A stretch of DNA of 64,000 nucleotides from Pseudomonadota bacterium (GTDB taxonomy: Bacteria > Bdellovibrionota_G > JALEGL01 > DATDPG01): positions 1 to 64,000 of the forward strand of contig JAZDDX010000029.1 of assembly GCA_043809315.1 (NCBI GenBank), in the 5' to 3' direction. Positions 20,283-57,521 of the stretch are shown piece after piece (within the stretch, counting starts at the first letter, position 1; every line of letters starts with the position of its first letter). The translations under genes and the position numbers were made by a program. A model generated the notes under the pieces. It was given only the letters and a program-made list of their open reading frames with translations, searched no databases and had not been told where the DNA came from.

Positions 20283-20944
20283 TTGCCTTTGGGGTTGGTT
20301 GCTTCCCGCATCTTCGCGATGGCCCCCTTGTAGTCCCGCGATCCGAAGATCGCGGTCCCCGCCACAAAAACCGATGCACCGGCCGCATGAATCTCCCCGA
20401 CATTTTGAGGACCGATCCCGCCGTCGACCTCGATCAGGATCTTGGGTGCCATCCGCTCCGATTTCTTCTTGAGCGATTGGACCTTCGAGACCGAATCGGG
20501 AAGAAACTTCTGCCCGCCGAAGCCGGGGTTCACGGTCATGATCAGAACCATCGCGATGTCGCTCCAGACATGATCTAGAGAATAAAGCGGCGTCGACGGA
20601 TTCAGGGCCACGGCCGGTTTCGCCCCCGACTCGCGGACCATGGCCAACGCCCGCTGAAGGTGGTGAGTCGCCTCGGCGTGGATCGAGATCCAATCGGAAC
20701 CGGCGTCCCGGAACGCCTGGATGTATCTCTCCGGCTCCTCGATCATGAGATGGACGTCGAGCGGGAGCTTCGTCGCTTTCCGGATCGCCGCGACAACCGG
20801 CGGGCCGATCGTGATATTCGGCACGAAACGCCCATCCATCACGTCGACATGGATCCAGTCGGCCCCGGCAGCCTCGACCGCCTCGATCTCATCCTTCAAT
20901 CGGGAGAAATCGGCGGAGAGAATCGAAGGTGCGATCATTGCCAT
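20279..20944 (-). CDS. rpe: Ribulose-phosphate 3-epimerase
   Basis: IAPSILSADF, HVDVMDG, DVHLMI, MTVNPGFGGQ, VDGGI. Confidence 0.97.
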   Translation of the reverse strand: MAMIAPSILSADFSRLKDEIEAVEAAGADWIHVDVMDGRFVPNITIGPPVVAAIRKATKLPLDVHLMIEEPERYIQAFRDAGSDWISIHAEATHHLQRALAMVRESGAKPAVALNPSTPLYSLDHVWSDIAMVLIMTVNPGFGGQKFLPDSVSKVQSLKKKSERMAPKILIEVDGGIGPQNVGEIHAAGASVFVAGTAIFGSRDYKGAIAKMREATNPKGK

Positions 20945-23391: not shown

Positions 23392-24660
23392 GTGGCCGAA
23401 GGAACCCTCCCCGCCGTCCTGCGCTACTTCCGCCGAATCCTGCGCGAAGATCCCCCTACCCTGCACACCGGGGTGCGCGCCTTCCACTACCTCGTCCGTC
23501 TCGGAACGCACGTCGTCCTGGAATTGAACGAGGCTCAGTTCCTGCAACGCGCTTCTGCCCTTGCCTATACGACGATCCTCTCCCTGGTGCCGGTCACGGC
23601 TCTCTTTGTTCTGTATTTCAAGATGGCGGGGAAACTGGCCTCATTCAGCTCGTCGGCGCAGGACTGGATCCTGCGGACGTTCGTTGCCGACTCAGCGCAA
23701 GGGGTCGTCGACTACATCGACCGGTTCGTGGCGAACCTCCATACCCGTACCTTGGGAACGATCGGTGCGGCCGGGTTGATCTTCACCGCCTATTCCCTCC
23801 TTCGGACCGTCGAGAAATCGCTCAACGCGCTCTGGAAGGTCCGGAGACACCGGACGATCTGGGCCCGATTCCAGATGCTCTGCTCGATTCTCGTGGTGGT
23901 CCCGACGGCCCTGGCCGCCTCGCTCTATGTCTCCGGCCGAGTTCAGGAGCTGAAATTCTTCCACTCCTACCGGGACCTGACGACGATGGTGCGGACCGCG
24001 TTCGTGCTGGTGCCGATCCTGCTCACGACCTTCTCTCTTTTCATGCTGTTCAAGCTGATGCCAAACACGAAGGTTCGCTGGAAGCCCGCCCTCTTCTCCG
24101 CGCTGGTGGCCGCGGTTCTCTTCGAACTCGCCAAGGGAGGGTTCAATCTCTACGTTCTCAAGGTCATTCCGGTCAGCAAGGTGTACGGCTCGCTGGGATT
24201 GATCCCGGTTCTCCTTCTCTGGATCTACCTCAGCTGGGTGATCGTCCTCACCGGCGTGGAGCTCAACTATACGATCCAAAACTTAGCGGCGCTGCAACGG
24301 GAGATGCGGGAAAAATACACCCAGAGCCCGTTTGCGATTCCGGTTCACGAGGATTGGGGGATCCGGATTGCCGTCGCTCTCGCCCGACACTTCCTTCGGG
24401 GGGATGGGCCGCAGTCCGCCGTGATGCTCGCAGCCGACGTCGGGCTGCCGATCGAATCGGTGGAGGATCACCTGGGGGTCTTGACGAAAGCCCAGCTCGT
24501 CGCCCCCACGGCCATCGCGGAGGAGCCCTCGTACGTGTTCAGCCGCCCGCCCGAGAAGATCACGATCGGGGAGATCGGATCGGCCTTCCGGGCGCAACTG
24601 TCGCTTCCCGCCGAAAGAGAGACGGATCATCAACGAACGCTATCCGAGCTGATTCGTTAG
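23392..24660 (+). CDS. YihY/virulence factor BrkB family membrane protein with C-terminal wHTH-like domain
   Basis: ASALAYTTILSLVP, YGSLGLIPVLLLWIYLSW; tail RPPEKITIGEI. Confidence 0.85.
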   Translation: MAEGTLPAVLRYFRRILREDPPTLHTGVRAFHYLVRLGTHVVLELNEAQFLQRASALAYTTILSLVPVTALFVLYFKMAGKLASFSSSAQDWILRTFVADSAQGVVDYIDRFVANLHTRTLGTIGAAGLIFTAYSLLRTVEKSLNALWKVRRHRTIWARFQMLCSILVVVPTALAASLYVSGRVQELKFFHSYRDLTTMVRTAFVLVPILLTTFSLFMLFKLMPNTKVRWKPALFSALVAAVLFELAKGGFNLYVLKVIPVSKVYGSLGLIPVLLLWIYLSWVIVLTGVELNYTIQNLAALQREMREKYTQSPFAIPVHEDWGIRIAVALARHFLRGDGPQSAVMLAADVGLPIESVEDHLGVLTKAQLVAPTAIAEEPSYVFSRPPEKITIGEIGSAFRAQLSLPAERETDHQRTLSELIR

Positions 24661-25370
24661 TCTTTACCCCGCCGTTGCGAGGCGAGGATGCTCTTCAAGA
24701 AGATCGCCATGTCTTCGCGGCGGGCCGGTGTGAGATCGATAAACTGAACGCCGATCCCCTCCATGAAATCTTTCCGGATCCCCGATTCCCCTTTGCGGAG
24801 GTGAACCACCTCCACGTCGGCCGCGAACTTCCGCTTCGATGTCGGGTGGACTAGAACGATCGCGAGCCGGTCCCCCAGCGCGAACCCTTCGATCGACGTC
24901 TTCAGGAACAACCCGCCGTAACTCAGGTTGTCGGTGATCACTTTTCGGGCCATCGCTTTCGAGCGGATCTCGATCACGAGTTGCGTCCGCGCGCGGGGAT
25001 ATCTCCGACTCCCGATTCCGCGGGCATCGAGAAGCTGATCGATGAACTTGTCGAACAGCCGCGCCTGGCGCGCTTCGATCTTCAGGAAGTGGAACCCCAT
25101 CCCGGGGGTTTCGGTCAGACGGTTCGGCGCGACGATCCGGGCCACCTTGGCGGTTACGCGGATCGTCTCGCCGGAATGCGGGATCTCGATCTGCATCTGG
25201 AGCTTCTCGCCGATCTTCGCGAACGGCTCCTTGGTCTCCAGAAAAATTCCGCTCTTGCTCAAGTTTCCGGTAAACGTCTCCGATTCCCCTTCGAACCCGC
25301 CGATCCGGACCCGGATCTTCGTCTCGACACGCGGTTTCACGCGACGTTCAGCAATTGCCAGTACTTCCAT
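24657..25370 (-). CDS. Tandem PilZ-domain protein
   Basis: RRVKPR...NLSKSG and RRYPR...NLSYGG; GMGFHF / GIGVQF. Confidence 0.85.
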   Translation of the reverse strand: MEVLAIAERRVKPRVETKIRVRIGGFEGESETFTGNLSKSGIFLETKEPFAKIGEKLQMQIEIPHSGETIRVTAKVARIVAPNRLTETPGMGFHFLKIEARQARLFDKFIDQLLDARGIGSRRYPRARTQLVIEIRSKAMARKVITDNLSYGGLFLKTSIEGFALGDRLAIVLVHPTSKRKFAADVEVVHLRKGESGIRKDFMEGIGVQFIDLTPARREDMAIFLKSILASQRRGKD

Positions 25371-25439
25371 AGGCTTCGACCGAGCACCATCTTCCACGAT
25401 CACCCCGGGGGCGGCAAGAAAAAGACCCGTGCGCGGCGT

Positions 25440-26339
25440 CTACAAACGGGAAAGGAACGAACGGAGAGCCCCCTTCCGCTCTCCGGTCCCCGGGCCGGTC
25501 CGCTCGAGAACCGCATCGGCGAGACGAAGGAACGCCCCGGCCTGAACCGACTCGGGGTTGACCGCAACGGTCGGCCGGCCGGTATCCCCCCCGCGCCGGA
25601 TCTCGAGGTCGAGCGGGATCTCCCCCAGGAACGGGACCCCGAGTTCGTCGGCGGTTCTCTTCCCGCCGCCGGCGTCGAAAACTGGGGTCAGAGTATGGCA
25701 ATGGGGGCATTCAAAGGAGGACATGTTCTCGATGATCCCCAGGACCGGAACCGACACCTCCCGGAACATCGCGAGGCCGCGCCGGGCATCGATCAACGCC
25801 ATATCGTTCGGCGTCGTCACGATGATCGCGCCCGAAAGAGGAACGGTCTGGACGATCGTCAATTGAGCGTCTCCGGTCCCCGGCGGAAGGTCGAGGACGA
25901 GATAATCGAGCTCCCCCCAGTTCACGTTCCGGAGAAATTCCTGAAGCATTTTCATCACCATCGGCCCGCGCCAGATCACGGCGGTATTCTCTTCCACCAG
26001 GAAGCCGATCGACATGACCTTGAGACCGTAACGGGAGAGCGGCACGATTTTCTGGTCCGGGCCGAGCGTCGGCCGCTCGTTAAGCCCCAGCATGAGCGGG
26101 ATCGATGGGCCGTAGACGTCGGCATCGCAGATCCCGACCGTCTTCCCCCTCCGTCCCAAGGCAAGTGCCAGATTGACGGCCACCGTCGATTTCCCGACCC
26201 CCCCCTTGCCGCTCGCGACGGCCAGGATGTTCCTGACCCCGGGGATCGGCTGCCTCTCGAGGGGGGCCGGTGCCGCCTTCGTGGGGGGCGCGGCCGTGGG
26301 GGGCTGAAACGTAGGAAGTTCGGTCGGTTCTTTCTTCAT
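25440..26339 (-). CDS. Mrp/ApbC/NBP35 family P-loop ATPase (Fe-S carrier)
   Basis: SGKGGVGKST, DADVYGPS, WRGPM, DLPPGTGD, ENMS..CPHC. Confidence 0.92.
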   Translation of the reverse strand: MKKEPTELPTFQPPTAAPPTKAAPAPLERQPIPGVRNILAVASGKGGVGKSTVAVNLALALGRRGKTVGICDADVYGPSIPLMLGLNERPTLGPDQKIVPLSRYGLKVMSIGFLVEENTAVIWRGPMVMKMLQEFLRNVNWGELDYLVLDLPPGTGDAQLTIVQTVPLSGAIIVTTPNDMALIDARRGLAMFREVSVPVLGIIENMSSFECPHCHTLTPVFDAGGGKRTADELGVPFLGEIPLDLEIRRGGDTGRPTVAVNPESVQAGAFLRLADAVLERTGPGTGERKGALRSFLSRL

Positions 26340-27946
26340 TTGCGTCCCAGAATCTTCTTCGCGAACGAAAGGAACCAACCGCTCGATTGCGATCCTTCGG
26401 TGTTCATCGCCACCTTCAAACCGTCCCGCAAGCTCGCCGGGGTCTGAAGGGTGATCATCTCGCTCATCGTCCGCTCCCCGGTCTCGACGTCACGCACTTT
26501 GATGGTCAAGAGGCACTCGGCGGAGAGATCGAACCGCATCTCCAGATTCCGTCCCCCCTTCTGCCCTTTCTTCGGGGCGGGGAAGCAGAAGGTGCCGAGG
26601 TACTCGTTCTTCAAGACGGTCGGATCCTCCCCCTGATAGATGTCGATCACCAGCATGTCCTCGCGGAACAGGTTGGCCTTATACGCCTTCGACGCGGGGA
26701 TCGGGGTGTTCTTGTCCAGGATTACTTTGAACTTCCCGCCGGTCACCGCGATCCCGATCGGGATCGACAGAACGTCGTGGAGCTTCACCTCTTGCCGGAT
26801 CGCCTTCGGGTTCGCGAGGATCGCCGCACCCAGGGCCACGACTTCGTCGGGATGAACCCCCTTCCGCGGCGCCTTCCCGAAATGGGCCTCGACTCGGTCC
26901 TGCACCAGAGGCATCCGGGTCTGGCCGCCGACCAGGAGGATCTCGTCCAGATCCCCCTTCTTCATCTTGATCGAGTTCAAAACCTGATCGGTGATGATCA
27001 ACGTCCGATCGATCAGATCGGAGGAAAGACGGTTGAGCTGATCGCGCGTCAGCTTGAGCTTCATGTCGACCGGCTGTCCCTTCAGGTCGGCGATGTACGG
27101 AAGAAGAAGTTCGACCTGTTTTTCGACCGACAGCTCCCGCTTGGCCCGCTCGGCCGCCTGCCGGACCCGCTGCACCGAGACCGGCTCCTCGAGCAGGTCT
27201 TTCCCGGTCACCTCCTTGAACTTCTGGAGAGCGAGCCCGGTGACCCGGTTGTCGATGTCGACCCCTCCTAGAAACGTATCGCCGCCGGTGGCGAGGACGC
27301 GGAATTCGTTCGCCTGGACGTGCAGGATCGAGACGTCGAATGTCCCGCCCCCCAGGTCGTAGACCAGAATTTTTTGGTCGAACCCTTTGTTGAAACCGTA
27401 CGCGACCGCTGCGGCAGTCGGTTCGTTGACGATCCGCTCGACCTCGAGTCCGGCGATCGCCCCCGCTCGCTTGACCGCGTGCCGCTGGTTGTCGCTGTAG
27501 TAAGCCGGCACCGTGATCACCGCGCGCTGGATCTTCTGATCCAGCATCCCCTGCGCCACTTCGCGGATCGCGCCCAGAATGTAGGCGGAGATCTGAGACA
27601 AGGTGTACGTCTTCTCCCCGAGCATCACGGCCGCTTCGCCGTCCGGTCCCTCGACGATCGGGTACGACATCAACTGCTTGATCTCCTGCACGATCATCGA
27701 ATTGAATTTGCGCCCGATGAGGCGCTTGGCGCCGAAGATGGTGCAGCCCGGATCGACCACCATTTGATCCAAGGCGGGCTGGCCGGTGACGATCTCCCCC
27801 TTTTTGGTCAGGGCAACAACCGACGGGATCGTCGCGTACCCTTTTTCCGACGGGATAATGCGGGGTTGGCCGTCCTTCACGTACGCCGCGCAGGTGAACG
27901 TGGTGCCCAGGTCAATTCCGAGAATGATCTCCGACGGAGAGGACAT
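26336..27946 (-). CDS. Specialised Hsp70-family protein (short, lacks the DnaK helical lid)
   Basis: GIDLGTT, TVPAYY, NEPTAAA, DLGGGTFD, VGGQTRMP; 536 aa. Confidence 0.88.
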   Translation of the reverse strand: MSSPSEIILGIDLGTTFTCAAYVKDGQPRIIPSEKGYATIPSVVALTKKGEIVTGQPALDQMVVDPGCTIFGAKRLIGRKFNSMIVQEIKQLMSYPIVEGPDGEAAVMLGEKTYTLSQISAYILGAIREVAQGMLDQKIQRAVITVPAYYSDNQRHAVKRAGAIAGLEVERIVNEPTAAAVAYGFNKGFDQKILVYDLGGGTFDVSILHVQANEFRVLATGGDTFLGGVDIDNRVTGLALQKFKEVTGKDLLEEPVSVQRVRQAAERAKRELSVEKQVELLLPYIADLKGQPVDMKLKLTRDQLNRLSSDLIDRTLIITDQVLNSIKMKKGDLDEILLVGGQTRMPLVQDRVEAHFGKAPRKGVHPDEVVALGAAILANPKAIRQEVKLHDVLSIPIGIAVTGGKFKVILDKNTPIPASKAYKANLFREDMLVIDIYQGEDPTVLKNEYLGTFCFPAPKKGQKGGRNLEMRFDLSAECLLTIKVRDVETGERTMSEMITLQTPASLRDGLKVAMNTEGSQSSGWFLSFAKKILGRK

Positions 27947-28049: not shown

Positions 28050-28136
28050 GCGAAAGTGGCGGAATTGGCAGACGCGCCAGATTCAGGGTCTGGTGCCCGC
28101 AAGGGTGTAGGGGTTCGAGTCCCCTCTTTCGCACCA
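28050..28136 (+). tRNA. tRNA-Leu(CAG)
   Basis: Acceptor stem GCGAAAG/CTTTCGC, anticodon arm CCAGA-TTCAGGG-TCTGG, long variable arm, T-arm AGGGG-TTCGAGT-CCCCT, encoded CCA. Confidence 0.97.
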
Positions 28137-28138
28137 AC

Positions 28139-29293
28139 CTAAAACAATTTTCCCGCGTGCAGCGTCCGCAGGAATTCCTTTACAGGGAGCACCGTGACCG
28201 CCCCGTCCTTCAATCTCTCCTTTCCCAGGTACACTCCGTAAGCTGCGCCGATCTTCCGGAGACCGATCAACTCGTTCAAACTTTTCGAGTATTCGGGCCG
28301 CCATTTCGGTCCGGATTTGATCTCCACACCGATGGTTTTGCCATGGCTTTTCCAGATCAGATCGACCTCTTTGTCGGACGGAAGGCGCCAGTACCCCCAG
28401 TTCTCGTCGTAACCGAGTTGTTGGGCGGCCACGCGGATTTCGTGCAACAACAACGTCTCCAGAAGCCACCCCTTGTTGGTCGGATCGATCGGCTCCCGAA
28501 GCGACCCGCGCAGGGCATTCACGACGCCGGTATCGAAGAAATAGAATTTCGGATGTGCCGCCTCGCGCACCTTCGTCTCGGTTTTCCAGGCCGGGAGCAG
28601 AAAGCTCACGAGCGTATCTTCCAACACCTTGAAATACCCTTGAACCGTGGGTCTCGCGACCCCGGCGTCACGGGCAACGCCTGCAATGTTGAGCGTTTGG
28701 CCGTTCAAGATTGCGGCAACCTCCAGGAACCGCGCGAAGGTGTCGAGATTCTTAACCGCGGCTTCCTGTTGAATCTCTTCCTTTAAGTACGTGATCACAT
28801 AGGAGTTCAGGAAACGGGTCCGCTCTTCATCATCATTCGCCACGAACGATTTTGGAAGCAATCCGAAGCGCAATGCTTTTTCAAGATCCCAGTCCTCGCC
28901 CACTTCCGAAAAGGAGAACGGAGCGAATCGAACGACCTCCGCCCTGCCCGCCAACAGGTTCACCCCCTCCCGTCGAAGTTTCCGAGCGCTTGATCCGGTC
29001 AGCGCGAAACGAAGGGCCTTGTTCCGATTCATCAGGTAATGAATTTCGTTCAAGAGCGCCGGAGCTCTTTGAATCTCATCGATCACCACCCATTTCACCG
29101 GACGCTCGGCCAGAAGCTCGCGCAGGTACGATGGATTCTTGATGATCGCCAAGTAGAGTTCGTGGTCGAGAAGATCCAACCAGAAACCTTCGCGATACTC
29201 CTTCTGAAGCCACGTGGTCTTCCCCGTCCCCCGTGGACCGAACAGAAAAAACGTGTTGTTTCGGGGAGATAGGTTGCGTGTATAGTCCGTCAT
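28139..29293 (-). CDS. AAA+ ATPase with DUF4143 / PD-(D/E)xK-like C-terminus
   Basis: GPRGTGKT, IDEIQ, TGSSARKL, PKFYFFDTG, EVDL...IEIK. Confidence 0.88.
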   Translation of the reverse strand: MTDYTRNLSPRNNTFFLFGPRGTGKTTWLQKEYREGFWLDLLDHELYLAIIKNPSYLRELLAERPVKWVVIDEIQRAPALLNEIHYLMNRNKALRFALTGSSARKLRREGVNLLAGRAEVVRFAPFSFSEVGEDWDLEKALRFGLLPKSFVANDDEERTRFLNSYVITYLKEEIQQEAAVKNLDTFARFLEVAAILNGQTLNIAGVARDAGVARPTVQGYFKVLEDTLVSFLLPAWKTETKVREAAHPKFYFFDTGVVNALRGSLREPIDPTNKGWLLETLLLHEIRVAAQQLGYDENWGYWRLPSDKEVDLIWKSHGKTIGVEIKSGPKWRPEYSKSLNELIGLRKIGAAYGVYLGKERLKDGAVTVLPVKEFLRTLHAGKLF

Positions 29294-29301
29294 CACTTTG
29301 C

Positions 29302-29330
29302 ATTGCAATCTGTTGTCGGGGTCTTGTCAA
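29302..29330 (-). promoter_or_regulatory. Putative sigma70 promoter of the AAA ATPase
   Basis: TTGACA-17 nt-TGCAAT, 8 nt before ATG 29293. Confidence 0.55.
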
Positions 29331-29366: not shown

Positions 29367-30128
29367 TTACCAGGCCACGCCATCACCGGGGCCGGGGTCT
29401 GTCACGGGGTTACAGGAGGATCCTGCCCGGTATTGCGCCCAGATCCTCAGTTCATCGCCCGGCTGAAGCTCGAGGCGGTTCCCGAACGTCAGGCCGCCAT
29501 CGAGGGCGGGGGCAATCGATCTGGAATCCGCGACGTCGAACGCCAACACGTTGAGCAGCTCACTGCAATTGGCGCCGGCCTGGTATTCGGCACAGTCGAA
29601 TTCAACGGGGTTACCGTTCCGTACCACTGCGTACCTGAAGCTGGCAACCTGACCGAGCAAACCGGAGTCTCCTGTGACCTTTACCCACTCTCGTCCATCG
29701 TTCGATTTCAATAGCGTTGCTTTTGCTTGTGCGGCGAGTTTACAGGTGCCCGGAGAGACATCGCCTATCCAAAAAGGAGGAATAGAATCCTCGGTCCCGA
29801 TCACGACTAGGTGATCGCCGCTAACGGTGGCGACCGAGCTGCTGGCGGACCCGGTTCCCAAACCCTCGTCATGGGTCGAGTTTTGGGGCACAAGGTCCTC
29901 GGGTTGGGACACCACGAGCGCTGAGGCAGTGTCATCGCCAGCAATCACGAGGTCAGAGCCAGCGCCGACATCAATCACCACGGACCCTACGTCGTTGTTA
30001 GTCGTCACGATCGGCACCATCCCCGAGTTCGCAAGACGATTCAGCTCGTCCTCCACCTTCTTGCCTCCTGCGCACGCAGCGAGCGAGAGAATCGCAATTA
30101 GGAGAGCTATCTTTCTTGCCGTATTCAT
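29367..30128 (-). CDS. Orphan lipoprotein, array member B2
   Basis: MNTARKIALLIAILSLAAC lipobox; shared LVVxGTE and four-Cys pattern. Confidence 0.8.
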   Translation of the reverse strand: MNTARKIALLIAILSLAACAGGKKVEDELNRLANSGMVPIVTTNNDVGSVVIDVGAGSDLVIAGDDTASALVVSQPEDLVPQNSTHDEGLGTGSASSSVATVSGDHLVVIGTEDSIPPFWIGDVSPGTCKLAAQAKATLLKSNDGREWVKVTGDSGLLGQVASFRYAVVRNGNPVEFDCAEYQAGANCSELLNVLAFDVADSRSIAPALDGGLTFGNRLELQPGDELRIWAQYRAGSSCNPVTDPGPGDGVAW

Positions 30129-30131
30129 CGG

Positions 30132-30815
30132 TTACGAATCCTTGCCCGGGGGTGTCCGGAATATTGCCTCGAAACACGCCGTTCCCTCGGCGAATACCTT
30201 GTCGATCGTCAGCACGTCCCCGTTGAATGTCGGAAAGCGGACCTTGAATTTTAAACTTTGGATCGTGATCGGGTCTGGCACCGTGATCGGGTCTGGCGCC
30301 ATTACCAGATCCCGGGAAGCTCTCGTATACCCATCCGACGTTGTCTTAAACAAATGGTCACAATGCTTGCCGTCGGGGTTGCTCGTGTAATCGGCACACC
30401 CTCTCATTGGTGTCGGGTCCCCAAAGTGTTTCAATTTGTAGTCGAACTTCTCAATCTGAGCGAGCCAATCGACATTCCCCGCGATCGTGATCCATACCTC
30501 GCCATGTTCATCCAGCGATGCCGTTGGCGTTGCGTTGTTCTCGAAAACACAGAAATCTGGCTCCGGGTTACCGTCGCCAATTTCCGTGCCCGTCACGACC
30601 AAAGGAAGTGCGTTGCCCGGTGCCCGTGTCTCGGGAGATATCTTCTCGGTCGGACCCAAAGAACCGTCGGTGTTCAAACCGTCGCCCGTCGTGCCGCCCG
30701 TTTCCGTGCCCGCCTTCGCAAGATTATTCAGATCATCTGCAGCCTCTTTCATTCCAGCGCATCCGAAGAGTCCCAGAATCGAGATGATTGCGAACGCGTT
30801 CTTGAGTTTCGTCAT
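30132..30815 (-). CDS. Orphan lipoprotein, array member A2
   Basis: MTKLKNAFAIISILGLFGC lipobox; start inferred from identity with the paralogue at 32490. Confidence 0.8.
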   Translation of the reverse strand: MTKLKNAFAIISILGLFGCAGMKEAADDLNNLAKAGTETGGTTGDGLNTDGSLGPTEKISPETRAPGNALPLVVTGTEIGDGNPEPDFCVFENNATPTASLDEHGEVWITIAGNVDWLAQIEKFDYKLKHFGDPTPMRGCADYTSNPDGKHCDHLFKTTSDGYTRASRDLVMAPDPITVPDPITIQSLKFKVRFPTFNGDVLTIDKVFAEGTACFEAIFRTPPGKDS

Positions 30816-30955
30816 CGCCCGGCCGTCCTTTCCCCGCATACGGACATCTGATGAATACGCAAGCTCCGGGCCAAGTATTTGTTTTGTAAAAACAGCCACA
30901 TAGAAACCACCAGCCCCCAAACGGAACCTTCCTTCGGCAACTCAAGTTCCGGCAT
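30739..30955. repeat. About 215-bp duplicated promoter/leader/signal-peptide block, copy 2
   Basis: Aligns with 32414-32627 with long identical runs and one 3-bp indel. Confidence 0.92.
30858..30874 (-). promoter_or_regulatory. Putative sigma54 promoter, A2-B2 unit
   Basis: TTGGCCCGGAGCTTGCG; upstream CGGAAC-N18-GTTCCG palindrome at 30922-30951. Confidence 0.7.
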
Positions 30956-31097
30956 TCTTCCATGGATAGATGGTGGTTATTTTGCCTTGCAAATATACCG
31001 CGAGAGGTCGACTTCATTATGATCGCGGAGAAGTGAGGCGAAACCTTGAGGACGTCGAAATTCTCCCTTGGCCGTCTTGTTTACCGAAAAGCCGAAA

Positions 31098-31697
31098 TCA
31101 TGGACCGTCCGGATCGACAGGCTTCTCTCCGATGGGGGTACGCACCGTCAAGGTGTACGGCTGGACGGTTTCTGAAAAGCACCGATTTGAGACGTCTTCA
31201 GGTGTCATGATCAGGGTGAACCCGTCTTGAATCGTTTTGGGAATCCGAAACTTCACGATCAGATCCGAGGACGAGTTCCGGATCTTCTCCCATGGGGCAC
31301 ATTTGCTCCCCCCGGTCGCGGTTGCGCAACCACTGACTTTCACGAAATATCCCGGTTTCGTGCCGACATAATCGAATCGGCCGATGTTCTCGATCCAGAT
31401 CGCGGCCTCGTTGCGAATGAAAAGCCACCTTTCTCCATTCAACACTTCGATCGATACCGTCGAGCCGGGTTGCGACCAGGAACAATCGATCATCGGAGAG
31501 CTGAGCGGAGGCTCGACTGTGGTCTCCGTTCCGGTCACCACAAGTCCGTTTCCAGGCGGATCGGCGTCGATTGCCGCGTCCGGTGACCTGTTCGAATCCG
31601 CGAGATGATTTGGATCGTCCGTAACGTTCTTGATTTCGGCGCACGCGGCGAGGGAGAAGATCGCGATCAGTAGAGCTATTCTTTTTGCTGTTTTCAT
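31098..31697 (-). CDS. Orphan lipoprotein, array member B1
   Basis: MKTAKRIALLIAIFSLAAC lipobox; PGNGLVVTGTE; four-Cys pattern; AGGAG RBS. Confidence 0.8.
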   Translation of the reverse strand: MKTAKRIALLIAIFSLAACAEIKNVTDDPNHLADSNRSPDAAIDADPPGNGLVVTGTETTVEPPLSSPMIDCSWSQPGSTVSIEVLNGERWLFIRNEAAIWIENIGRFDYVGTKPGYFVKVSGCATATGGSKCAPWEKIRNSSSDLIVKFRIPKTIQDGFTLIMTPEDVSNRCFSETVQPYTLTVRTPIGEKPVDPDGP

Positions 31698-31731
31698 CGT
31701 CTCATCTCCTCTTCGTCACGTGTCGCACCGT

Positions 31732-32490
31732 CTAGTTGTCAACCGTGAATTGGCTCCTGATCGCCTCATAACAAGGTGTTCCCGGCCTAAAACCCACAGT
31801 GACCGTCAGAAGATCGCGGTTTCGGAGCGCAAAGGGGATATCGAAGTACAGGCTCAGGACTGTAACGGTATTAGGAGCGGGAGGCGGAGGAGGAGGGGGA
31901 GGCGGGCCGTCGATTGGAACACCCCTAGTTGTTCCATCGGACCGTGTCTGGAACAGATGGGTACATTGACCGTCGTATCCAGGGATAACGTCTGAATCCA
32001 CCCATGAGCTAGTCTCGTCGGCACAAGCTCTCAGTGTCGGGGGGGCTAGATAGTGGTCTAATGTGTACGAAACCTTTGAAATCTGTGCGAGCCAGCTGGG
32101 GTCTCCCGTGATGGTGCTCCGTTGATCTAATGTCTCTATCTCTCCGTTGTTAGCACTGGGCTTGCATGCGGCAGCACGTTCGGACCAATATTCGGATTCA
32201 TCAAAGAAGCTGGGGATATCGATACCATGGGGTTCCACAACCAAGTCGGATCCAGCTGGCGAAGGAATATCGTTCCTGCTCCCACCTCCGCCACTGGGGT
32301 TGGTCGCGTTATTGTCGGATCCAGCATTCCCATTCGACGAATTCCCCCCCGGCGTTTGCGACGAACCGGCTGAACCTGTGTCGCTCGTTGCCAACCGCTG
32401 ACTTAAGTCGTCCGCAGCCTCTTTGATTCCGGCACACCCGAAGAGTCCCAGAATCGAGATGATTGCGAACGCGTTCTTAAGTTTCGTCAT
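31732..32490 (-). CDS. Orphan lipoprotein, array member A1
   Basis: Same signal peptide as A2; Gly/Ser/Asn linker; poly-Pro loop; four-Cys pattern. Confidence 0.8.
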   Translation of the reverse strand: MTKLKNAFAIISILGLFGCAGIKEAADDLSQRLATSDTGSAGSSQTPGGNSSNGNAGSDNNATNPSGGGGSRNDIPSPAGSDLVVEPHGIDIPSFFDESEYWSERAAACKPSANNGEIETLDQRSTITGDPSWLAQISKVSYTLDHYLAPPTLRACADETSSWVDSDVIPGYDGQCTHLFQTRSDGTTRGVPIDGPPPPPPPPPAPNTVTVLSLYFDIPFALRNRDLLTVTVGFRPGTPCYEAIRSQFTVDN

Positions 32491-32627
32491 CGCCCGGCCG
32501 TCCTTTCCCCGCATACGGTCATCTGAATACGCAAGCTCCGGGCCAAGTATTTGTTGTGTGAAAACAGCCACATAGAAACGGCAACTCCCCAACCGGAACC
32601 CTCCGCCGGTAACCCAGGTTCCGGCAT
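32414..32627. repeat. About 215-bp duplicated promoter/leader/signal-peptide block, copy 1
   Basis: Aligns with 30739-30955. Confidence 0.92.
32530..32546 (-). promoter_or_regulatory. Putative sigma54 promoter, A1-B1 unit
   Basis: TTGGCCCGGAGCTTGCG; upstream CCGGAACC-N16-GGTTCCGG palindrome at 32593-32624. Confidence 0.7.
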
Positions 32628-32682
32628 CTTTCCTCGTTGTCGTCGTCGCTTCGCTAGAATAGTTTGAAGAACTCGAGCCGAG

Positions 32683-35600
32683 ATGCCCGAACTCTGCACC
32701 AACTGCCGCCGCGCCATACCGGAAGGAGATCTTCGCTTCTGCCCCTATTGCGGCCTCCCCTTCCTCGCCCCGCTCGCCGAGCAGAGATACGCGGTGGTCG
32801 TTTTCGCTGACCTCGCCGGCTTCACCGAGCTCAGCACCTCCATCCCCCCGGCGAGCCTCCGGAAACTTCTCGACGACTTGATGCAGCGGTTCTGCCGGAT
32901 CGTTTCGGACTACGGCGCGAAGGTAGACAAGATCATCGGCGACTGCGTGATGTTCGTCTTCGGAACCGAGCGGACCTCGACCCGGGACGCGACGCGCGCC
33001 CTCGAAACGATCGATGCGATGAAGAAAGAGCTCGAAGCGTTCAATCGCGAGAACCGCCTGACCCTTTCCCTCCACGCCTCGATCGCCAACGGCATCGTTT
33101 CGGTCGGTCGCGTCGGCCCCTCGCAGACCGTGATGGGGGAGGTCGTCAACCTCGCCTCCCGACTTCTCCACGTCGGAGCCAAAGACGACGTCATCGTTTC
33201 CCCCACCTTCGCCGATCTCCTCGACGAAACCGTCCGCCTCGAAGCGCTCACGCCGACCGAGCTCAAGGGGTTCACCGATCCGGTCGTCCCGTTCCGCTAT
33301 CTCGGATTTCGCCGGGACGTAACTCCCCACGACCTTTTCTTCGGACGCGGACCGGAGCTCGAGAACCTCGACCGCCTTCTCGACACCTCCCGCGAAAAAA
33401 GAACTCCTCAATGGATCTTGCTGCAGGGTTCGGCCGGCATCGGGAAGAGCGGCCTCCTCCGGTCGTTTCTCGGACGGCTGTGGGGACGCGACCTGGCGAC
33501 GGTCCTCGTTTCGTTTGAAGATTCCTCCTCCCGACCGATGGAGGGGCTCCAGGCGCTGTTCGGGAAGCTCTTGAATCGTTCCGAGCTGGATTCGGACGAA
33601 CGCCGGAGCACGTGGAAACAGTTCGAACTGGCCCTCTCGATCTCCACATCCCTCGACAGCGAGCAGTACTCGACCCTCGTCTCCCAGATGATCGACGGGG
33701 TCGTGCGCAAGCGTCCGTTGGTCTTGGCCCTGGAGGACTTGCATGCGGCTCCTCCGGCCATCAAGACCATTTTCAATCGGATCCGCGAGATGGCATCGAC
33801 CGGGCCCCTTCTCGTTTGCGCCACCAGTCGGATGGCGGAAGAGGGGTTCGACTCCACCGTCGCTCTCTCTCCCTTGCCGGAAAACGCGGCGAAAGAATTG
33901 TTCGCGCACTTGATCCACGGCCGCACTGTCTCGAACGACGTGTCCAAAAACGCGCTCGCCGGGTGTGCCGGGAATCCGTTTCTGATCCGGACCGTCGCGC
34001 GCGCGATCCAGCGTTCGGTCCATCCGTCGAACCTGTTCGGCGGAAACACCGAGCTTCTTCTCTCCTCCACGCTCGACACCTTCCCAAAGGCCACGCAGGA
34101 AACGATCAAGACCGCCTCTCTTTTCGGTCGTCACGTCCCGATGTTCTACCTCTCGAAAATGACGGGGGAGCCGGAGGCACACCTCCGAAAATCGCTCGCA
34201 CCGGTCGGCGTCTTCCATGTCTCGGATCGGGGAGAGACGTTCGTCTTCGAGCACGTTCTCCTCCAGGAGGCGGCCTATCGGAGAATCGACACGACCCTGC
34301 TCTCCGACCTGCACGGCAAAGCGGGAGCCATTCTGGAGGAAGTGAAGGCTCCGGCGGAACAGGTGGCGTATCACTACGTCCGTTCCGACCAGAAATTAAA
34401 GGCGGTTGCGTTCGCCGTCCAGGCGGCCCGGCGCCTCTCCCGGACTCCGGCCTCGGAACAGGCGCTCGAGTTCGCCCGGAAGGCCGAGGAACTCGCACGT
34501 GAATTGGACGACCCCGCTGTTCTCGCCGAAGGATTGAGCTTGCGATTCCAGATCGAGAGCCGGAATCTCCCGACCGCGCGGGCGGTTTCGCTCTGGGACC
34601 GGTTCGCCAAGACCGTGCCGGCGGATCATCAACATTCCGTCCTCCCGACCTTTCTCTATGCCAAGGCAGAACTCCTTTGCGACCACCGGAGCGACGACGA
34701 CTGCTGGAAAGCGTTGGGGGAGATCGAAGCGCTCGACCCCAAGGTCGACACGAGCTTCCTCAAAGCACGCCTCTTCCAACACCGGGAGCGACTGAAGGAG
34801 TGCCGCCAACTCGTCACCGAACAGCTCTCGGCAAGCGACCTGCCGGCCCGGAAGCGCGGGGAGTTCTTGAGGCTTCTCTGCGACGTTGAGGGGCTCGAGT
34901 ACCACTTCGAAGAGGCGAAACAGGCGGGGTTGCAGGCCCACGCCGTCTGCCGATCGATCGATGACTTTCAGGGGGTTTTGAAGAGCAACGTCATGCTCGG
35001 GTGGCTTGCTTACCGGAGTAACCGGTACGAGGAGGCGAAAGATCATTACACGGAAGCTTCCGAACTCTCCCTGAAGCTCGGAGATCTCCTGGTCCACTGT
35101 CGCGTGCTCTTGAGTCTGGCCCTGGTCAATTTCCGGCTCCTCGATTTCCGGGAGTGCTTCCGGGCGACTTCTCAGGGTCTCGATCTTCTTTCCGGAGGGC
35201 TCAATCATCCCCTGCTGAACCGGTTCCGCCTCACGGTCGCCGACACCGCGTATCTCACGCTGGGGGAATACCAGATCGCCGAAAGTTATTTCCAGTTGGC
35301 TCACACCTATTTCAGTGAACACGGTCCCCCGGAATATTTGACGGAGGTGCTGGCGGGTCTGGCTCACCTCCGCCTCAAGCAAGGGCGATTCGAGGAAGGG
35401 ATCCCGTTTGCGAATGAATCGCTCAACTGTTGTCCCAAGGGAGGGGATGCCGAACTCGTCTGTCGCCTCCTCCGAGCCGATCTCTTGAGCCATCTCGGAG
35501 CGGACGCAGAGGCAAAAGCGGAATGGAAGACGGTCCTCAAGTATCCCCACGCAAACCGGCTTCCGCTCGAACTCCGGACCTACTTCCGGATCGTCGCTTC

Positions 35601-35814
35601 CACGGTCACCGGCCGGAAAGACCGGAAACAGATCGAGGAGATCCTGCGCCATCTCGCCGACCCGGAGATCCGCCCTATCTCGTTCGACCGCCTCGATCTT
35701 CTTCGCGAAGTTCTTTTGTACGGTCCCGATCCACGGATTCAAAAACAGTACGAGGTGCTTCGGGACCAACTTCGGGAAAAAGTTCCCGAGAAGTACCGCG
35801 CGCGGATTGTCTGA
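32683..35814 (+). CDS. Zn-ribbon + class III adenylate/guanylate cyclase + STAND-type AAA ATPase + TPR-like protein
   Basis: CTNC...CPYC; FADLAGFT, KIIGDCVM, GEVVNLASRL; GSAGIGKS, LEDLH; FEHVLLQEAAY; helical repeats. Confidence 0.88.
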   Translation: MPELCTNCRRAIPEGDLRFCPYCGLPFLAPLAEQRYAVVVFADLAGFTELSTSIPPASLRKLLDDLMQRFCRIVSDYGAKVDKIIGDCVMFVFGTERTSTRDATRALETIDAMKKELEAFNRENRLTLSLHASIANGIVSVGRVGPSQTVMGEVVNLASRLLHVGAKDDVIVSPTFADLLDETVRLEALTPTELKGFTDPVVPFRYLGFRRDVTPHDLFFGRGPELENLDRLLDTSREKRTPQWILLQGSAGIGKSGLLRSFLGRLWGRDLATVLVSFEDSSSRPMEGLQALFGKLLNRSELDSDERRSTWKQFELALSISTSLDSEQYSTLVSQMIDGVVRKRPLVLALEDLHAAPPAIKTIFNRIREMASTGPLLVCATSRMAEEGFDSTVALSPLPENAAKELFAHLIHGRTVSNDVSKNALAGCAGNPFLIRTVARAIQRSVHPSNLFGGNTELLLSSTLDTFPKATQETIKTASLFGRHVPMFYLSKMTGEPEAHLRKSLAPVGVFHVSDRGETFVFEHVLLQEAAYRRIDTTLLSDLHGKAGAILEEVKAPAEQVAYHYVRSDQKLKAVAFAVQAARRLSRTPASEQALEFARKAEELARELDDPAVLAEGLSLRFQIESRNLPTARAVSLWDRFAKTVPADHQHSVLPTFLYAKAELLCDHRSDDDCWKALGEIEALDPKVDTSFLKARLFQHRERLKECRQLVTEQLSASDLPARKRGEFLRLLCDVEGLEYHFEEAKQAGLQAHAVCRSIDDFQGVLKSNVMLGWLAYRSNRYEEAKDHYTEASELSLKLGDLLVHCRVLLSLALVNFRLLDFRECFRATSQGLDLLSGGLNHPLLNRFRLTVADTAYLTLGEYQIAESYFQLAHTYFSEHGPPEYLTEVLAGLAHLRLKQGRFEEGIPFANESLNCCPKGGDAELVCRLLRADLLSHLGADAEAKAEWKTVLKYPHANRLPLELRTYFRIVASTVTGRKDRKQIEEILRHLADPEIRPISFDRLDLLREVLLYGPDPRIQKQYEVLRDQLREKVPEKYRARIV

Positions 35815-35824
35815 ACAGGACGGC

Positions 35825-37573
35825 CTACGGCTGCGAGGAAGCTGGGGGCTGGGCTCGCCGGCGATCCCCTTCCGTTTCGACGATCAACCACTCCGCCTTC
35901 CGGTTCCGTGTGACCGTGAGCCCCAGCGCCTCCCCTCCGTTCCCCTCGATCCGCAGGCCTTTAAACCCTTTGTCGATAATCTTCCGGAGCATCTCGTTTC
36001 CCTGTTGCATCCGAACCTCCGGCGGGATCTGATCCCACGCGGCGGGATCGACCTGTCCGACCCAGACGTTGTCCTGGACCCCCATGGGGATCACGCCGAG
36101 CTCCCGCCCAAGCTCTCGGTCCGATGTGAGGTAGATCATCCACCCGCTCAGCGAGTCCCATTCGTAGACCAAAGCTCCGATCAAGGAGATCGCCAGAAGT
36201 CCTCCAAGTAAAGCGCCTTTTCCGATCTTGAGCTGGACCTTTTTCTTTGGAGTTTCCTTTTCATCTTCGAATTCGGGGCGAAAGAAGAACGGATGGTCGT
36301 AGAAGCGCCTCGCACGCCCCAAGGTTTGTGGAAGAGAGGAGAGAAATGTCGAGAATTCGCCGAGGGTAGCTGCCAAATGCGACCGAGCCCGATCCAAACA
36401 GGCCAAGCGATCCCGCACTTCCCCTCTCGGCGCCGCCTCGAATCTGTTTCGGAGTTCTTCGCCGATCTTGAGCACCTCGCCGGCCAAGAACCGATACCCC
36501 GGCTGGATGAGTGCCAGATCCCTCGTGATCGGCCGGAGACGGAAGATCTGTCTCGCTTCGAATCCGGCCTTGAGCGTGTAGGCTTGCGCTCGTTCCAGCA
36601 GTTCCTGCGCTTCGGTTGGAAGGTCTGGGTGAGGCCGGACCTGTTTCGTCCAGTATTCCAGAAGCCAGGCGAGATCCCCCTCCGCTTCTGAACTCAGTAC
36701 GGACGAAAACGATTTCGTTTTCTCATACTCCGCGTACGCGACTGCGGAAAGGAACTGGACGGAGAACGAGTCGGTCGGACCTTTTGTTTCCTTTCGTGTC
36801 GGTGGCGCCGCCTCGGCATGTTGCACCGGGTTTAACTCGTCCCAGACTGTGCGGAGACGGACCAGGGCTGTCAGAATCTCCTTGCGCGTGACGTGATCCG
36901 AGATCGGAAGCCCCGACACGATCGATTCCAGCTCCCCCGCGACCACCTGGAGCTCGGTCGCGAGCCTCCCATGAATGAATTGTCGCTCCACCCGATCGCT
37001 TTGCTCGGCCGCTTCCATCCCCGCCCGGAGATTCAGTTCGGTCATGAGCGAGACGCCGACCGCCCAATCCAGAAGGTTCTCCTTCCGCCCCCCCATCGCG
37101 AGCTTGAGACGGCCGAGCGATCGGGGATCGAGTTTCCGTACGAACGCCTGTCCCGCCGGAGTCTCGAGATTCTCCTCCGCTGCCTGCGCCGCCGAAACGG
37201 TGTTCTGTGCGCGGCTCCGTTCAAGATATTCCTGGATGCAGCGATCGAGCGTGCCGGCGGTCGTTTCGGGAAGCGTTTCGAACTCGACTCCGATCTCGAA
37301 CCCGGGTTTCCCATCCAGCAACGGGATCTCCGCAACGCGCGCCACTTTTCCGTTGATCACGACGGACGGGAGCGAGCCGAACGGTGAGATGAGAAGCGTG
37401 ATCTTCATTCCGGGACGGACCTTCTCGGATCTTTCATCCCTCGGCGCTTCCAGTTGAATTCCGGTCCGGGAGATGTCCCGGGCGAAACAGACGGCCGAAA
37501 AACCGCACTCCACCGAAACGCTGAACGGAATCCGAATCGCCGGCTTCGTCGGTCTTTCGTGGGCCCTGGTCAT
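35825..37573 (-). CDS. N-terminal PilZ-like domain protein with helical region and C-terminal TM segment
   Basis: DISRTG, GKVARV, IGVEF; TM GALLGGLLAISLIGALVY; RxxxR motif degenerate. Confidence 0.65.
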   Translation of the reverse strand: MTRAHERPTKPAIRIPFSVSVECGFSAVCFARDISRTGIQLEAPRDERSEKVRPGMKITLLISPFGSLPSVVINGKVARVAEIPLLDGKPGFEIGVEFETLPETTAGTLDRCIQEYLERSRAQNTVSAAQAAEENLETPAGQAFVRKLDPRSLGRLKLAMGGRKENLLDWAVGVSLMTELNLRAGMEAAEQSDRVERQFIHGRLATELQVVAGELESIVSGLPISDHVTRKEILTALVRLRTVWDELNPVQHAEAAPPTRKETKGPTDSFSVQFLSAVAYAEYEKTKSFSSVLSSEAEGDLAWLLEYWTKQVRPHPDLPTEAQELLERAQAYTLKAGFEARQIFRLRPITRDLALIQPGYRFLAGEVLKIGEELRNRFEAAPRGEVRDRLACLDRARSHLAATLGEFSTFLSSLPQTLGRARRFYDHPFFFRPEFEDEKETPKKKVQLKIGKGALLGGLLAISLIGALVYEWDSLSGWMIYLTSDRELGRELGVIPMGVQDNVWVGQVDPAAWDQIPPEVRMQQGNEMLRKIIDKGFKGLRIEGNGGEALGLTVTRNRKAEWLIVETEGDRRRAQPPASSQP

Positions 37574-57478: not shown

Positions 57479-57521
57479 CGCAACGGACGTGCCAGGTTTC
57501 GAAGCACCTAACTTATTGATA
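57479..57521 (-). promoter_or_regulatory. Sigma54 promoter plus IHF site
   Basis: CTGGCACGTCCGTTGCG (57479-57495); TATCAATAAGTTA matches WATCAANNNNTTR (57509-57521). Confidence 0.72.

What the first reader, a model, noticed from the sequence alone, without database searches (positions are those of the whole stretch)
29367..32627. Array of four paralogous orphan lipoproteins: near-constant promoter and leader, strongly diverged mature domains
Seen: the order is [A1-B1][A2-B2]. A1 and A2 share about 215 bp of near-identical DNA covering promoter, leader and signal peptide (MTKLKNAFAIISILGLFGCAG). B1 and B2 share a second signal type (MxTAxxIALLIAIxSLAACA). DNA similarity collapses shortly after the lipid-anchor Cys. 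All four still align by eye on a common scaffold: a low-complexity linker, G..LVV, a first Cys, a W/L..QI..F.Y-like block, a C...C pair and a last Cys near the C-terminus. I do not recognise the family. Inference: a disulfide-stabilised surface-lipoprotein repertoire under diversifying selection, or shuffled by recombination at the conserved 5' blocks. Possible roles include prey or surface recognition and immunity. This is my best candidate for an undescribed system here.
Basis: partly seen in the sequence, partly recalled or inferred. Interest (0 to 1): 0.8.

Follow-up and report, generated by a model that had tools for sequence, protein, structure and literature searches.

The report
Orphan lipoprotein paralogue array, shared leader
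Four related genes for membrane-anchored proteins of a rare, unnamed family sit in a row, and two of them share an almost identical control region and export signal, probably copied from one to the other; what the proteins do is unknown.

Summary
On the minus strand lie A1 (31732-32490), B1 (31098-31697), A2 (30132-30815) and B2 (29367-30128), as two close-packed A-B pairs. All four have a lipoprotein signal, a conserved motif after the Cys, a low-complexity tether and an all-beta domain with four invariant Cys. A1 and A2 share about 225 nt at 85-93% identity. This block runs from about 145 nt upstream to codon 17. It holds a -24/-12 (sigma-54-type) promoter-like motif and a palindrome. Synonymous divergence jumps from 0.08 in codons 1-17 to saturation from codon 18. 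The shared block is therefore a gene-conversion or recombination tract on anciently diverged paralogues, not protein-level conservation. The family has no Pfam, NCBIfam, PDB or fold match. Among 1.84 billion representative proteins I found only three supported relatives, plus one more by word search. Two of these relatives carry the same domain (94% identical) behind different leaders, so leader and domain modules do get exchanged. Diversifying selection cannot be tested because dS is saturated. Surface exposure, disulfides and function remain inferred. The closest analogue in architecture, not in sequence, is the Borrelia Erp family. Interest is modest.

The parts
31732..32490 (-). A1 lipoprotein gene (252 aa; lipobox Cys19; domain Cys 109, 156, 176, 240)
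31098..31697 (-). B1 lipoprotein gene (199 aa; lipobox Cys19; domain Cys 72, 124, 133, 173); starts 34 nt after the A1 stop, with GAGGAG ahead of the ATG
30132..30815 (-). A2 lipoprotein gene (227 aa; lipobox Cys19; domain Cys 89, 140, 152, 214). The database gene call starts 35 codons further up, at a TTG (262 aa, P0005)
29367..30128 (-). B2 lipoprotein gene (253 aa; lipobox Cys19; domain Cys 129, 179, 188, 239); starts 3 nt after the A2 stop
32408..32633 (-). Copy 1 of the shared 5' block (upstream region, 5' UTR, A1 signal peptide and post-Cys motif)
30733..30961 (-). Copy 2 of the shared 5' block (upstream region, 5' UTR, A2 signal peptide and post-Cys motif)
32530..32545 (-). -24/-12 (sigma-54-type) promoter-like motif TGGCCCGGAGCTTGCG, ending 39 nt before the A1 ATG
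   Evidence: 3 matches in the window against 0.11 expected; two of them are these duplicated copies. The consensus is recalled.
30858..30873 (-). The same -24/-12-like motif ahead of A2
32594..32623 (.). Palindrome CGGAAC-N18-GTTCCG, 49 nt upstream of the -24 element; candidate activator (enhancer-binding protein) site
   Evidence: 3 matches against 0.32 expected; 1 of 100 shuffles reached 3
30922..30951 (.). The same palindrome ahead of A2. The arms are conserved and the spacer has diverged.

Best explanation
The locus holds two tandem two-gene operons, A1-B1 and A2-B2. They encode four old paralogues of a very small, unnamed lipoprotein family found in an uncultured lineage.

Each protein has four parts:
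- a signal peptide with a lipobox;
- a conserved 12-14-residue motif right after the lipid-anchor Cys (A-[GE]-x-K-x-[AV]-x-[DN]-[DE]-L-N-x-L-[AG] in most members);
- a low-complexity tether of 32-108 residues;
- an all-beta domain of about 145-170 residues with four invariant Cys.

Shown: the A1 and A2 mature parts diverged long ago, because their synonymous sites are saturated. Their upstream region, 5' UTR and first 17 codons are nearly identical, including at synonymous sites. The 5' module was therefore copied between the two genes recently, by gene conversion or recombination. Among relatives, the same domain occurs behind different leaders.

Inferred: the shared block carries a sigma-54-type promoter and an upstream activator site, so one activator would switch both operons on together. 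The proteins are lipid-anchored in the envelope, probably the outer membrane because residue +2 is Ala. The four Cys form two disulfides. The beta domains act as tethered binding modules for an unknown ligand. B is co-translated with A.
For: Anatomy. Lipobox pattern in 8 of 8 members, and tether lengths and composition.

Homology of all four. A profile hit only these 4 of 680 window ORFs. Four invariant Cys.

All-beta models with the same order of elements: A2 domain pLDDT 54.5; B2 domain pLDDT 72.8, pTM 0.71.

5' block. In A1/A2, pS is 0.08 in codons 1-17, 1.0 in codons 18-29 (where 11 of 12 residues are identical) and 0.75 afterwards. The B1/B2 leader has pS 0.59. The 5' UTR plus leader RNA folds less well than shuffles (z = +2.29), so RNA structure does not explain the identity.

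Module exchange: P0009 against P0012 is 6/19 identical in the signal, 12/14 in the motif, 20/45 in the tether and 151/161 in the domain. P0007 has a B-type leader with an A-like domain.

Promoter-like motif and palindrome. The sigma-70 scan found no site in either upstream block. A sigma-54 activator gene at 15245-16603 shows that the organism uses sigma-54.

Rarity: only itself among 129 candidates; 3 supported relatives among 1,835,955,588 representatives; one more, P0012, by word search.
Against: No experiment or transcript data exist.

The two -24/-12 motifs and the two palindromes are copies of one duplication. They count as one observation, not two.

Nucleotide-level constraint on a regulatory region could explain part of the upstream identity without gene conversion.

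The two structure models share rows in their alignments, so their agreement is not independent. The A2 model has low confidence.

No coordinates were available, so Cys-Cys distances could not be checked.

The domain tree does not place B1 with B2. B1 sits on a 3.9 substitutions-per-site branch and only 2 of 5 inner branches are supported. A simple duplication of an A-B unit is therefore not shown.

The terminator-like hits on the gene strand lie inside the shared 5' blocks or inside B2, none in the B1-A2 spacer (5 sites on both strands against 4.1 expected). The operon limits are therefore unproven.

The binding-module function is an argument from architecture only.
Confidence: 0.6

Rival explanations
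1. This is a variable surface repertoire. The mature domains are driven apart by diversifying selection. The constant 5' block serves as a recombination handle for switching or reshuffling cassettes, as in antigenic or phase variation.
For: Constant leader with diverged mature parts. Leader/domain mosaics among relatives. Hypervariable low-complexity loops at one position: a poly-Pro run in A1 and a tandem 18-nt repeat in A2. GC3 of the four genes is 0.56-0.67 against 0.77-0.84 for the flanking Hsp70-like and cyclase genes.
Against: dS is saturated, so there is no dN/dS evidence. pN is 0.43, below pS at 0.75.

All four genes point the same way. Both A copies have their own promoter-like block, so there is no silent-cassette logic.

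No recombinase was found among the 47 of 56 other candidate ORFs scanned, including every candidate ORF within 10 kb of the array apart from two short ones.

Only two copies share the block.
Confidence: 0.15
2. The four proteins are envelope immunity or inhibitor lipoproteins. They would neutralise periplasm-acting toxins or lytic enzymes, either the cell's own or a competitor's, and have accumulated as an array of orphan immunity paralogues in a variable region.
For: Small tethered beta-sandwich lipoproteins with disulfides fit this class in general (recalled). The array lies in a stretch of atypical composition beside a tRNA-Leu gene and beside a DUF4143 ATPase. That ATPase matches the defence candidate PDC-S01 at 1.2e-56.
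Against: No toxin or effector gene is adjacent. PADLOC and PHROGs give no match for the four proteins. No fold match to known inhibitors. No attachment-site repeat of the tRNA.
Confidence: 0.12
3. The identity of the 5' block reflects nucleotide-level functional constraint, not gene conversion. The constrained elements would be the activator site, the promoter, the 5' UTR and the translation-initiation region.
For: The block contains promoter-like and palindromic elements. The palindrome arms are conserved while its spacer has diverged, which looks like selection on a binding site.
Against: Codons 5-17 of the signal peptide are identical at every synonymous site, while the next 12 codons differ at all 8 synonymous sites despite 11 of 12 identical residues. 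The B1/B2 leaders, with the same kind of task, have diverged synonymously (pS 0.59). No RNA structure is predicted.
Confidence: 0.13

Closest known systems
Borrelia burgdorferi Erp (OspE/F-related, 'upstream homology box') lipoproteins of cp32 prophages
   Same: A paralogous lipoprotein gene family in mono- or bicistronic operons. It has conserved promoter and operator sequences and a conserved leader ahead of very diverse mature parts, with recombination between members. [quoted passage not shown]
   Different: No sequence relationship: there is no Pfam hit for any member. The array here is chromosomal, among housekeeping genes, and not on a prophage plasmid. There are only two operons. The promoter is sigma-54-like. 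The mature parts here are still homologous to each other. The organism is an uncultured bacterium related to delta-proteobacteria.
Mycoplasma Vpma/Vsp/Vsa phase-variable lipoprotein loci
   Same: Clustered lipoprotein genes that share 5' untranslated sequences and signal sequences, with variable mature parts (passages of PMC2268961).
   Different: Those loci have one unique promoter, silent copies, recombination sites in the 5' UTR and an adjacent tyrosine recombinase (Xer1) that inverts DNA. Here no recombinase was found, all genes share one orientation, and each A gene has its own promoter-like block.
Myxobacterial SitA polymorphic lipoprotein toxins
   Same: Modular lipoproteins with a family-conserved N-terminal part and a swappable C-terminal part, in a related group of bacteria (abstract of PMC8546572).
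   Different: SitA C-termini are polymorphic nucleases with a cytoplasmic immunity partner. Here the C-terminal domains are mutually homologous beta domains with no toxin match. The downstream gene is another lipoprotein paralogue.
Tethered envelope lipoproteins such as RcsF and LpoB (recalled, not checked in any call); Campylobacter Cj0090 (PDB 4gio)
   Same: Lipid anchor, long disordered linker and small globular domain. RcsF has two disulfides (recalled). 4gio_A appeared in both fold-search lists.
   Different: The 4gio matches are not significant (E 0.078 and 0.046; TM 0.24-0.25). There is no sequence similarity to any PDB chain. The resemblance is in architecture only.

Membership tests
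Bacterial lipoproteins (signal peptidase II substrates) | Positively charged N-region, hydrophobic core and a lipobox ending in Cys | tested here: met
   A PROSITE-like lipobox pattern, recalled from memory, matched 8 of 8 family members with the Cys at residue 14-27. K/R residues occur in the first 6 positions.
Bacterial lipoproteins (signal peptidase II substrates) | Actual lipidation and membrane anchoring | not testable with these tools
   Needs labelling, globomycin treatment or fractionation.
Any curated protein family (Pfam, NCBIfam, PADLOC, PHROGs) | Score above the family cut-off | tested here: not met
   Pfam gave 0 families above cut-off for the 4 window proteins; the best were DUF7537 at 13.5 bits against a 31.7 cut-off and AbrB-like at 15.3 against 25. 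It also gave none for the 4 relatives. NCBIfam: 0 of 4. PADLOC: 0 of 4. PHROGs: 0 of 7.
Borrelia Erp / upstream-homology-box family | Sequence homology to OspE/OspF/Elp proteins | tested here: not met
   No Pfam family was detected.
Borrelia Erp / upstream-homology-box family | Conserved promoter and leader ahead of diverse mature parts, in mono- or bicistronic operons | tested here: met
   compared with passages of PMC10016077.
Borrelia Erp / upstream-homology-box family | Carried on cp32-type prophage plasmids | tested here: not met
   The neighbours are chromosomal housekeeping and signalling genes. The four proteins have no PHROG match.
Recombinase-driven phase-variable lipoprotein loci (Vpma/Vsp/Vsa type) | Adjacent site-specific recombinase | tested here: not met
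   No recombinase family among the 47 of 56 other candidate ORFs scanned. These include every candidate ORF within 10 kb on either side except two short ones (20660-20971 and 22006-22413) and one at 38898-39689 that overlaps the AlaDH gene on the opposite strand.
Recombinase-driven phase-variable lipoprotein loci (Vpma/Vsp/Vsa type) | One expression site with promoter-less silent copies, some inverted | tested here: not met
   All four genes are on the minus strand, and both A genes carry the full upstream block.
SitA polymorphic lipoprotein toxins | C-terminal toxin (nuclease) domain and a downstream non-lipoprotein immunity gene | tested here: not met
   No toxin domain was found. The C-terminal domains are homologous to each other. 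The downstream gene is a lipoprotein paralogue.
Sigma-54-dependent promoters | GG at -24 and GC at -12 with canonical spacing, upstream of the gene | tested here: met
   TGGCCCGGAGCTTGCG lies ahead of both A genes. The consensus is recalled. The two sites are copies of each other.
Sigma-54-dependent promoters | Upstream binding site for an enhancer-binding protein, and such activators present in the organism | tested here: inconclusive
   A palindrome lies 49 nt upstream of the -24 element in both copies. An NtrC-type activator gene is at 15245-16603. Nothing links the two.
Sigma-54-dependent promoters | Transcription that depends on RpoN | not testable with these tools
   Needs RNA mapping or genetics.
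Known beta-sandwich folds (Ig-like, BACON and others) | Significant structural or profile match | tested here: inconclusive
   PDB and viral fold searches gave 0 matches at E <= 0.001. The best were 0.026 (PDB) and 0.011 (viral), with TM normalised by query at most 0.39. Atlas structure hits had TM at most 0.46 and used a poor Atlas model. hhalign probability was 7.7% to a BACON-repeat protein.

The most novel reading that the evidence does not exclude
The family is a modular envelope display system. Promoter-and-leader modules, tethers and Cys-stabilised beta domains would be exchanged by recombination near the conserved post-Cys motif. That would give strain-specific repertoires for recognising other cells, prey or surfaces.

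A bolder form concerns the invariant LVVxGT[ED] strand at the start of the domain. It is repeated up to several times in the tethers of the B2-type proteins, and it might be donated to a partner's sheet. A and B subunits would then assemble into lipid-anchored heteromers or short fibres.
Probability: 0.1. Interest if true: 0.6.

Novelty: new variant of a known kind. Interest (0 to 1): 0.3.

Why it matters
If confirmed, this adds an uncharacterised lipoprotein family with an unassigned beta fold. It comes from a poorly known, uncultured lineage whose LeuRS is at most 80% identical to any other sequence found and 58-59% identical to Geobacter.

It would also be a clean chromosomal example of a conversion tract that keeps the control region and export signal of two old paralogues identical. 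That logic was so far described mainly for host-associated spirochaetes and mycoplasmas.

It opens no long-standing question, and no function can yet be assigned. The value is mainly descriptive.

Tried and rejected
- **Word-based search with A2** found only itself (1 of 129 candidates).
Cluster sizes, accessions and contigs of the relatives stayed unseen.
- **The search for related loci with the 7-sequence alignment** gave an error: no conserved stretch.
- **The two genome-contig scans** found no relative. The first used B2 plus P0006 (70 pattern matches, none confirmed). The second used the neighbouring cyclase (145 pattern matches, none confirmed). Synteny and array content in relatives could therefore not be examined.
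- **Complex prediction** for the A2 domain with the B2 domain returned 'no answer' (score 0.00, controls not run). This says nothing for or against A-B binding.
- **Fold searches**, the **PDB sequence profile** (best E 1.1) and the **ESM Atlas** (best feature score 0.77; no usable feature hit) gave no lead.
- **Three further hits of the profile search** (P0008, P0010, P0011) are repeat proteins. hhalign gave 7.7% and 9.6% probability for P0010 and P0011. P0008 was not tested further. I treat none of them as relatives.
- **Integrated element at tRNA-Leu**: no repeat of the tRNA end was found, only a 14-nt chance-level match inside the cyclase gene.
- **RNA structure in the shared 5' UTR and leader**: rejected (z = +2.29).
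- **dN/dS**: not computable because dS is saturated.
- **Domain tree**: too weak to decide whether an A-B unit was duplicated as a whole.
- **Literature**: my three paper searches looked for comparators only. The family has no name to search for, so I make no claim about whether it is in print.
Full report
**What is there.** Four intact genes lie head to tail on the minus strand:

| Gene | Coordinates | Length |
|---|---|---|
| A1 | 31732-32490 | 252 aa |
| B1 | 31098-31697 | 199 aa |
| A2 | 30132-30815 | 227 aa |
| B2 | 29367-30128 | 253 aa |

B1 starts 34 nt after the A1 stop, behind a GAGGAG. B2 starts 3 nt after the A2 stop. About 137 nt of unrelated DNA separate the B1 stop from the start of the A2 upstream block. 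The layout is therefore two close-packed pairs, A1-B1 and A2-B2. The long ORFs that overlap them, including an 880-aa ORF through A1, are artefacts of the high G+C content and of the cyclase gene on the other strand.

**The proteins.** Each begins with a short basic N-region, a hydrophobic core and a lipobox: LFGC in the A type and LAAC in the B type. A PROSITE-like pattern, recalled from memory, matched 8 of 8 family members. After the Cys comes a conserved stretch, for example AGMKEAADDLNNLA in A2 and AGGKKVEDELNRLA in B2. Next comes a tether of 32 to 108 residues, of which 68-89% are G, S, T, N, D, P, A, E or Q. Last comes a domain of 142-171 residues. It opens with an LVVxGT[ED] strand and holds four Cys that are present in all eight members.

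BLASTP links A1 with A2 (2e-36, 38% identity), A2 with B2 (3e-12) and A2 with B1 (3e-9) over most of the length. For B1/B2, A1/B1 and A1/B2 the significant alignment covers only the N-terminal region. A profile of the family found only these four among 680 stop-to-stop ORFs of the window.

**The shared block.** The repeat finder gives 30733-30851 against 32408-32526 (119 nt, 93%) and 30852-30961 against 32524-32633 (110 nt, 85%). The two are joined by a 3-nt indel. In 30-nt windows identity is 87-100% between 32574 and 32440, then drops to about 45%.

Codon by codon, A1 and A2 differ as follows:

| Codons | Differences | pS | pN |
|---|---|---|---|
| 1-17 | 1 synonymous change | 0.08 | 0.00 |
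| 18-29 | all 8 synonymous sites differ; 11 of 12 residues identical | 1.0 | 0.04 |
| 30 to end | saturated | 0.75 | 0.43 |

The B1/B2 leaders have similar residues but pS 0.59. The RNA of the A2 5' UTR plus leader folds less well than its shuffles (z = +2.29).

The simplest reading is that A1 and A2 are old paralogues. Their 5' module, from about 145 nt upstream to codon 17, was recently copied from one to the other. Because dS is saturated in the mature part, dN/dS cannot be estimated. Diversifying selection can be neither shown nor excluded.

**What the block contains.** The sequence TGGCCCGGAGCTTGCG lies ahead of both A genes, at 32530-32545 and 30858-30873. Its GG and GC doublets have the spacing of a -24/-12 promoter (consensus recalled). 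The pattern has 3 matches in the window against 0.11 expected. Its end lies 39-42 nt before the ATG.

Forty-nine nt further upstream is the palindrome CGGAAC-N18-GTTCCG, at 32594-32623 and 30922-30951. Its arms are conserved and its spacer is not. It has 3 matches against 0.32 expected, and 1 of 100 shuffles reached 3.

The sigma-70 scan found no site in either upstream block; its single hit lies inside the A2 coding region. An NtrC-type sigma-54 activator gene at 15245-16603 shows that the organism uses sigma-54.

These features fit a sigma-54 promoter with an activator site, and hence co-induction of both operons. But the two copies are one duplication, and no transcript data exist.

**How rare the family is.**
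- Pfam and NCBIfam give nothing above cut-off for the four proteins.
- Pfam gives nothing for the relatives.
- PADLOC and PHROGs give nothing.
- The word-based search with A2 found only itself.

A profile of the four domains, scored against 1,835,955,588 representative proteins, gave 9 hits at E <= 0.001. Three are the window's own proteins. Three are true relatives with the same leader, motif, tether and Cys pattern: P0006 (1.6e-18), P0007 (7.2e-10) and P0009 (6.7e-6). Three are repeat proteins that I do not accept. For two of them hhalign gave 7.7% and 9.6% probability; the third was not tested.

A profile word search added P0012 and showed that P0006 comes from a MAG labelled 'Pseudomonadota bacterium'. 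Two scans of 185,579 species genomes found neither the family nor the neighbouring cyclase. No relative's locus could therefore be read.

**Modules move.** P0009 and P0012 are identical at 151 of 161 domain residues, but at only 6 of 19 signal residues and 20 of 45 tether residues. P0012 carries an A-like LFGC leader and P0009 a B-like one. P0007 joins a B-like leader to an A-like domain.

In the domain tree only B2+P0006 and P0009+P0012 are supported. B1 sits on a very long branch and does not group with B2. Leader type and domain type are thus uncoupled. It also leaves open whether an A-B unit was duplicated as a whole.

**Fold.** AlphaFold2 on the A2 domain with 4 sequences gave pLDDT 54.5. 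On the B2 domain with 8 sequences it gave pLDDT 72.8 and pTM 0.71. Both models are all-beta. When aligned by the invariant Cys they show the same order of seven to eight strands and one short helix. The two alignments share rows, so the models are not independent.

Foldseek against the PDB and against viral models gave no match at E <= 0.001. The best hits were Ig-like V domains, with TM normalised by query at most 0.39. The PDB sequence profile (best E 1.1) and the ESM Atlas gave nothing. I could not see coordinates, so the two-disulfide idea rests only on four invariant Cys in an exported protein.

**Surroundings.**
- Downstream lie a DUF4143/AAA_14 ATPase (28139-29308), which matches the defence candidate PDC-S01 at 1.2e-56, then a tRNA-Leu gene (28050-28136) and an Hsp70-like gene.
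- Upstream and divergent is a 1043-aa cyclase-AAA_16-TPR protein.
- GC3 is 0.56-0.67 in the four genes and 0.69 in the ATPase, against 0.77-0.84 in the flanking Hsp70-like and cyclase genes.
- No repeat of the tRNA end marks an inserted element.
- No recombinase, phage gene or toxin gene was seen among the 47 of 56 other candidate ORFs scanned.
- LeuRS is at most 80% identical to any other database sequence. It is 62-68% identical to MAGs labelled Pseudomonadota or Bdellovibrionales and 58-59% identical to Geobacter.

**Comparison with known systems.** In architecture the closest is the Borrelia Erp family. It has mono- or bicistronic operons, a common promoter and leader, diverse mature parts and frequent recombination (passages of PMC10016077). 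There is no sequence relationship, and there is no prophage plasmid here.

Mycoplasma Vpma/Vsp loci share conserved 5' UTRs and signal sequences. They work through one promoter, silent copies and an adjacent recombinase (passages of PMC2268961), none of which is present here.

SitA toxins are modular lipoproteins with nuclease C-termini and immunity partners (abstract of PMC8546572). That does not fit either.

**Verdict.** It is a small, compositionally atypical array of four old paralogues of an unnamed lipoprotein family, with a recent conversion tract over the control region and leader of the two A genes. Diversifying selection, surface exposure and any role in recognition or immunity remain untested. 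The novelty is a new protein family showing a known kind of gene-family behaviour, and interest is modest.

Noticed in passing
window 28139-29308 (-), with tRNA-Leu(cag) at 28050-28136 (+): A DUF4143/AAA_14 ATPase lies directly downstream of the array. It matches the PADLOC defence candidate PDC-S01 (1.2e-56) and abuts a tRNA-Leu gene. Its GC3 is 0.69, below the flanking genes. No attachment-site repeat was found.
   Followed up: partly
window 32683-35814 (+): A 1043-aa protein with a nucleotide cyclase domain, an AAA_16 ATPase domain and TPR repeats is transcribed divergently from A1. Its ATG lies about 50 nt beyond the shared block. It has weak similarity to Pycsar cyclases (PycC, 1.9e-15), probably through the generic cyclase domain.
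   Followed up: partly
window 57479-57494 (-): A third and better match to the -24/-12 pattern (TGGCACGTCCGTTGCG) lies ahead of an ATG at about 57451. I did not analyse any reading frame there.
   Followed up: no
window 51579-52425 (-): A HepT-like RNase gene and a nucleotidyltransferase (MNT-type) gene lie side by side. This is the usual arrangement of a HepT/MNT toxin-antitoxin pair.
   Followed up: no
window 29829-30071 (B2 tether); protein P0006 residues 15-122: The tethers of B2 and P0006 contain extra copies of the hydrophobic strand motif that opens the domain, for example LVIAGDD in B2, and FVVTIGKD and IVIGTD in P0006. The other members have it once.
   Followed up: partly
window 30264-30299 (A2) and 31873-31905 (A1): At the same loop, between the third Cys and the next strand, A2 has a tandem 18-nt repeat (PDPITVPDPITI) and A1 has a run of nine Pro. 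This looks like a hypervariable low-complexity insertion point.
   Followed up: no
window 30816-30920 (-): The database gene call for A2 (P0005, 262 aa) starts at a TTG 35 codons upstream of the ATG that gives a proper lipoprotein signal. The extension runs through the promoter-like motif, so the annotated start is probably wrong.
   Followed up: partly
window 24657-27946 (-) and 35825-37573 (-): A truncated-looking Hsp70-family protein (536 aa), an Mrp/ParA-type ATPase and two PilZ-domain proteins flank the region. A PEGA-domain protein lies at 37718-38674.
   Followed up: no
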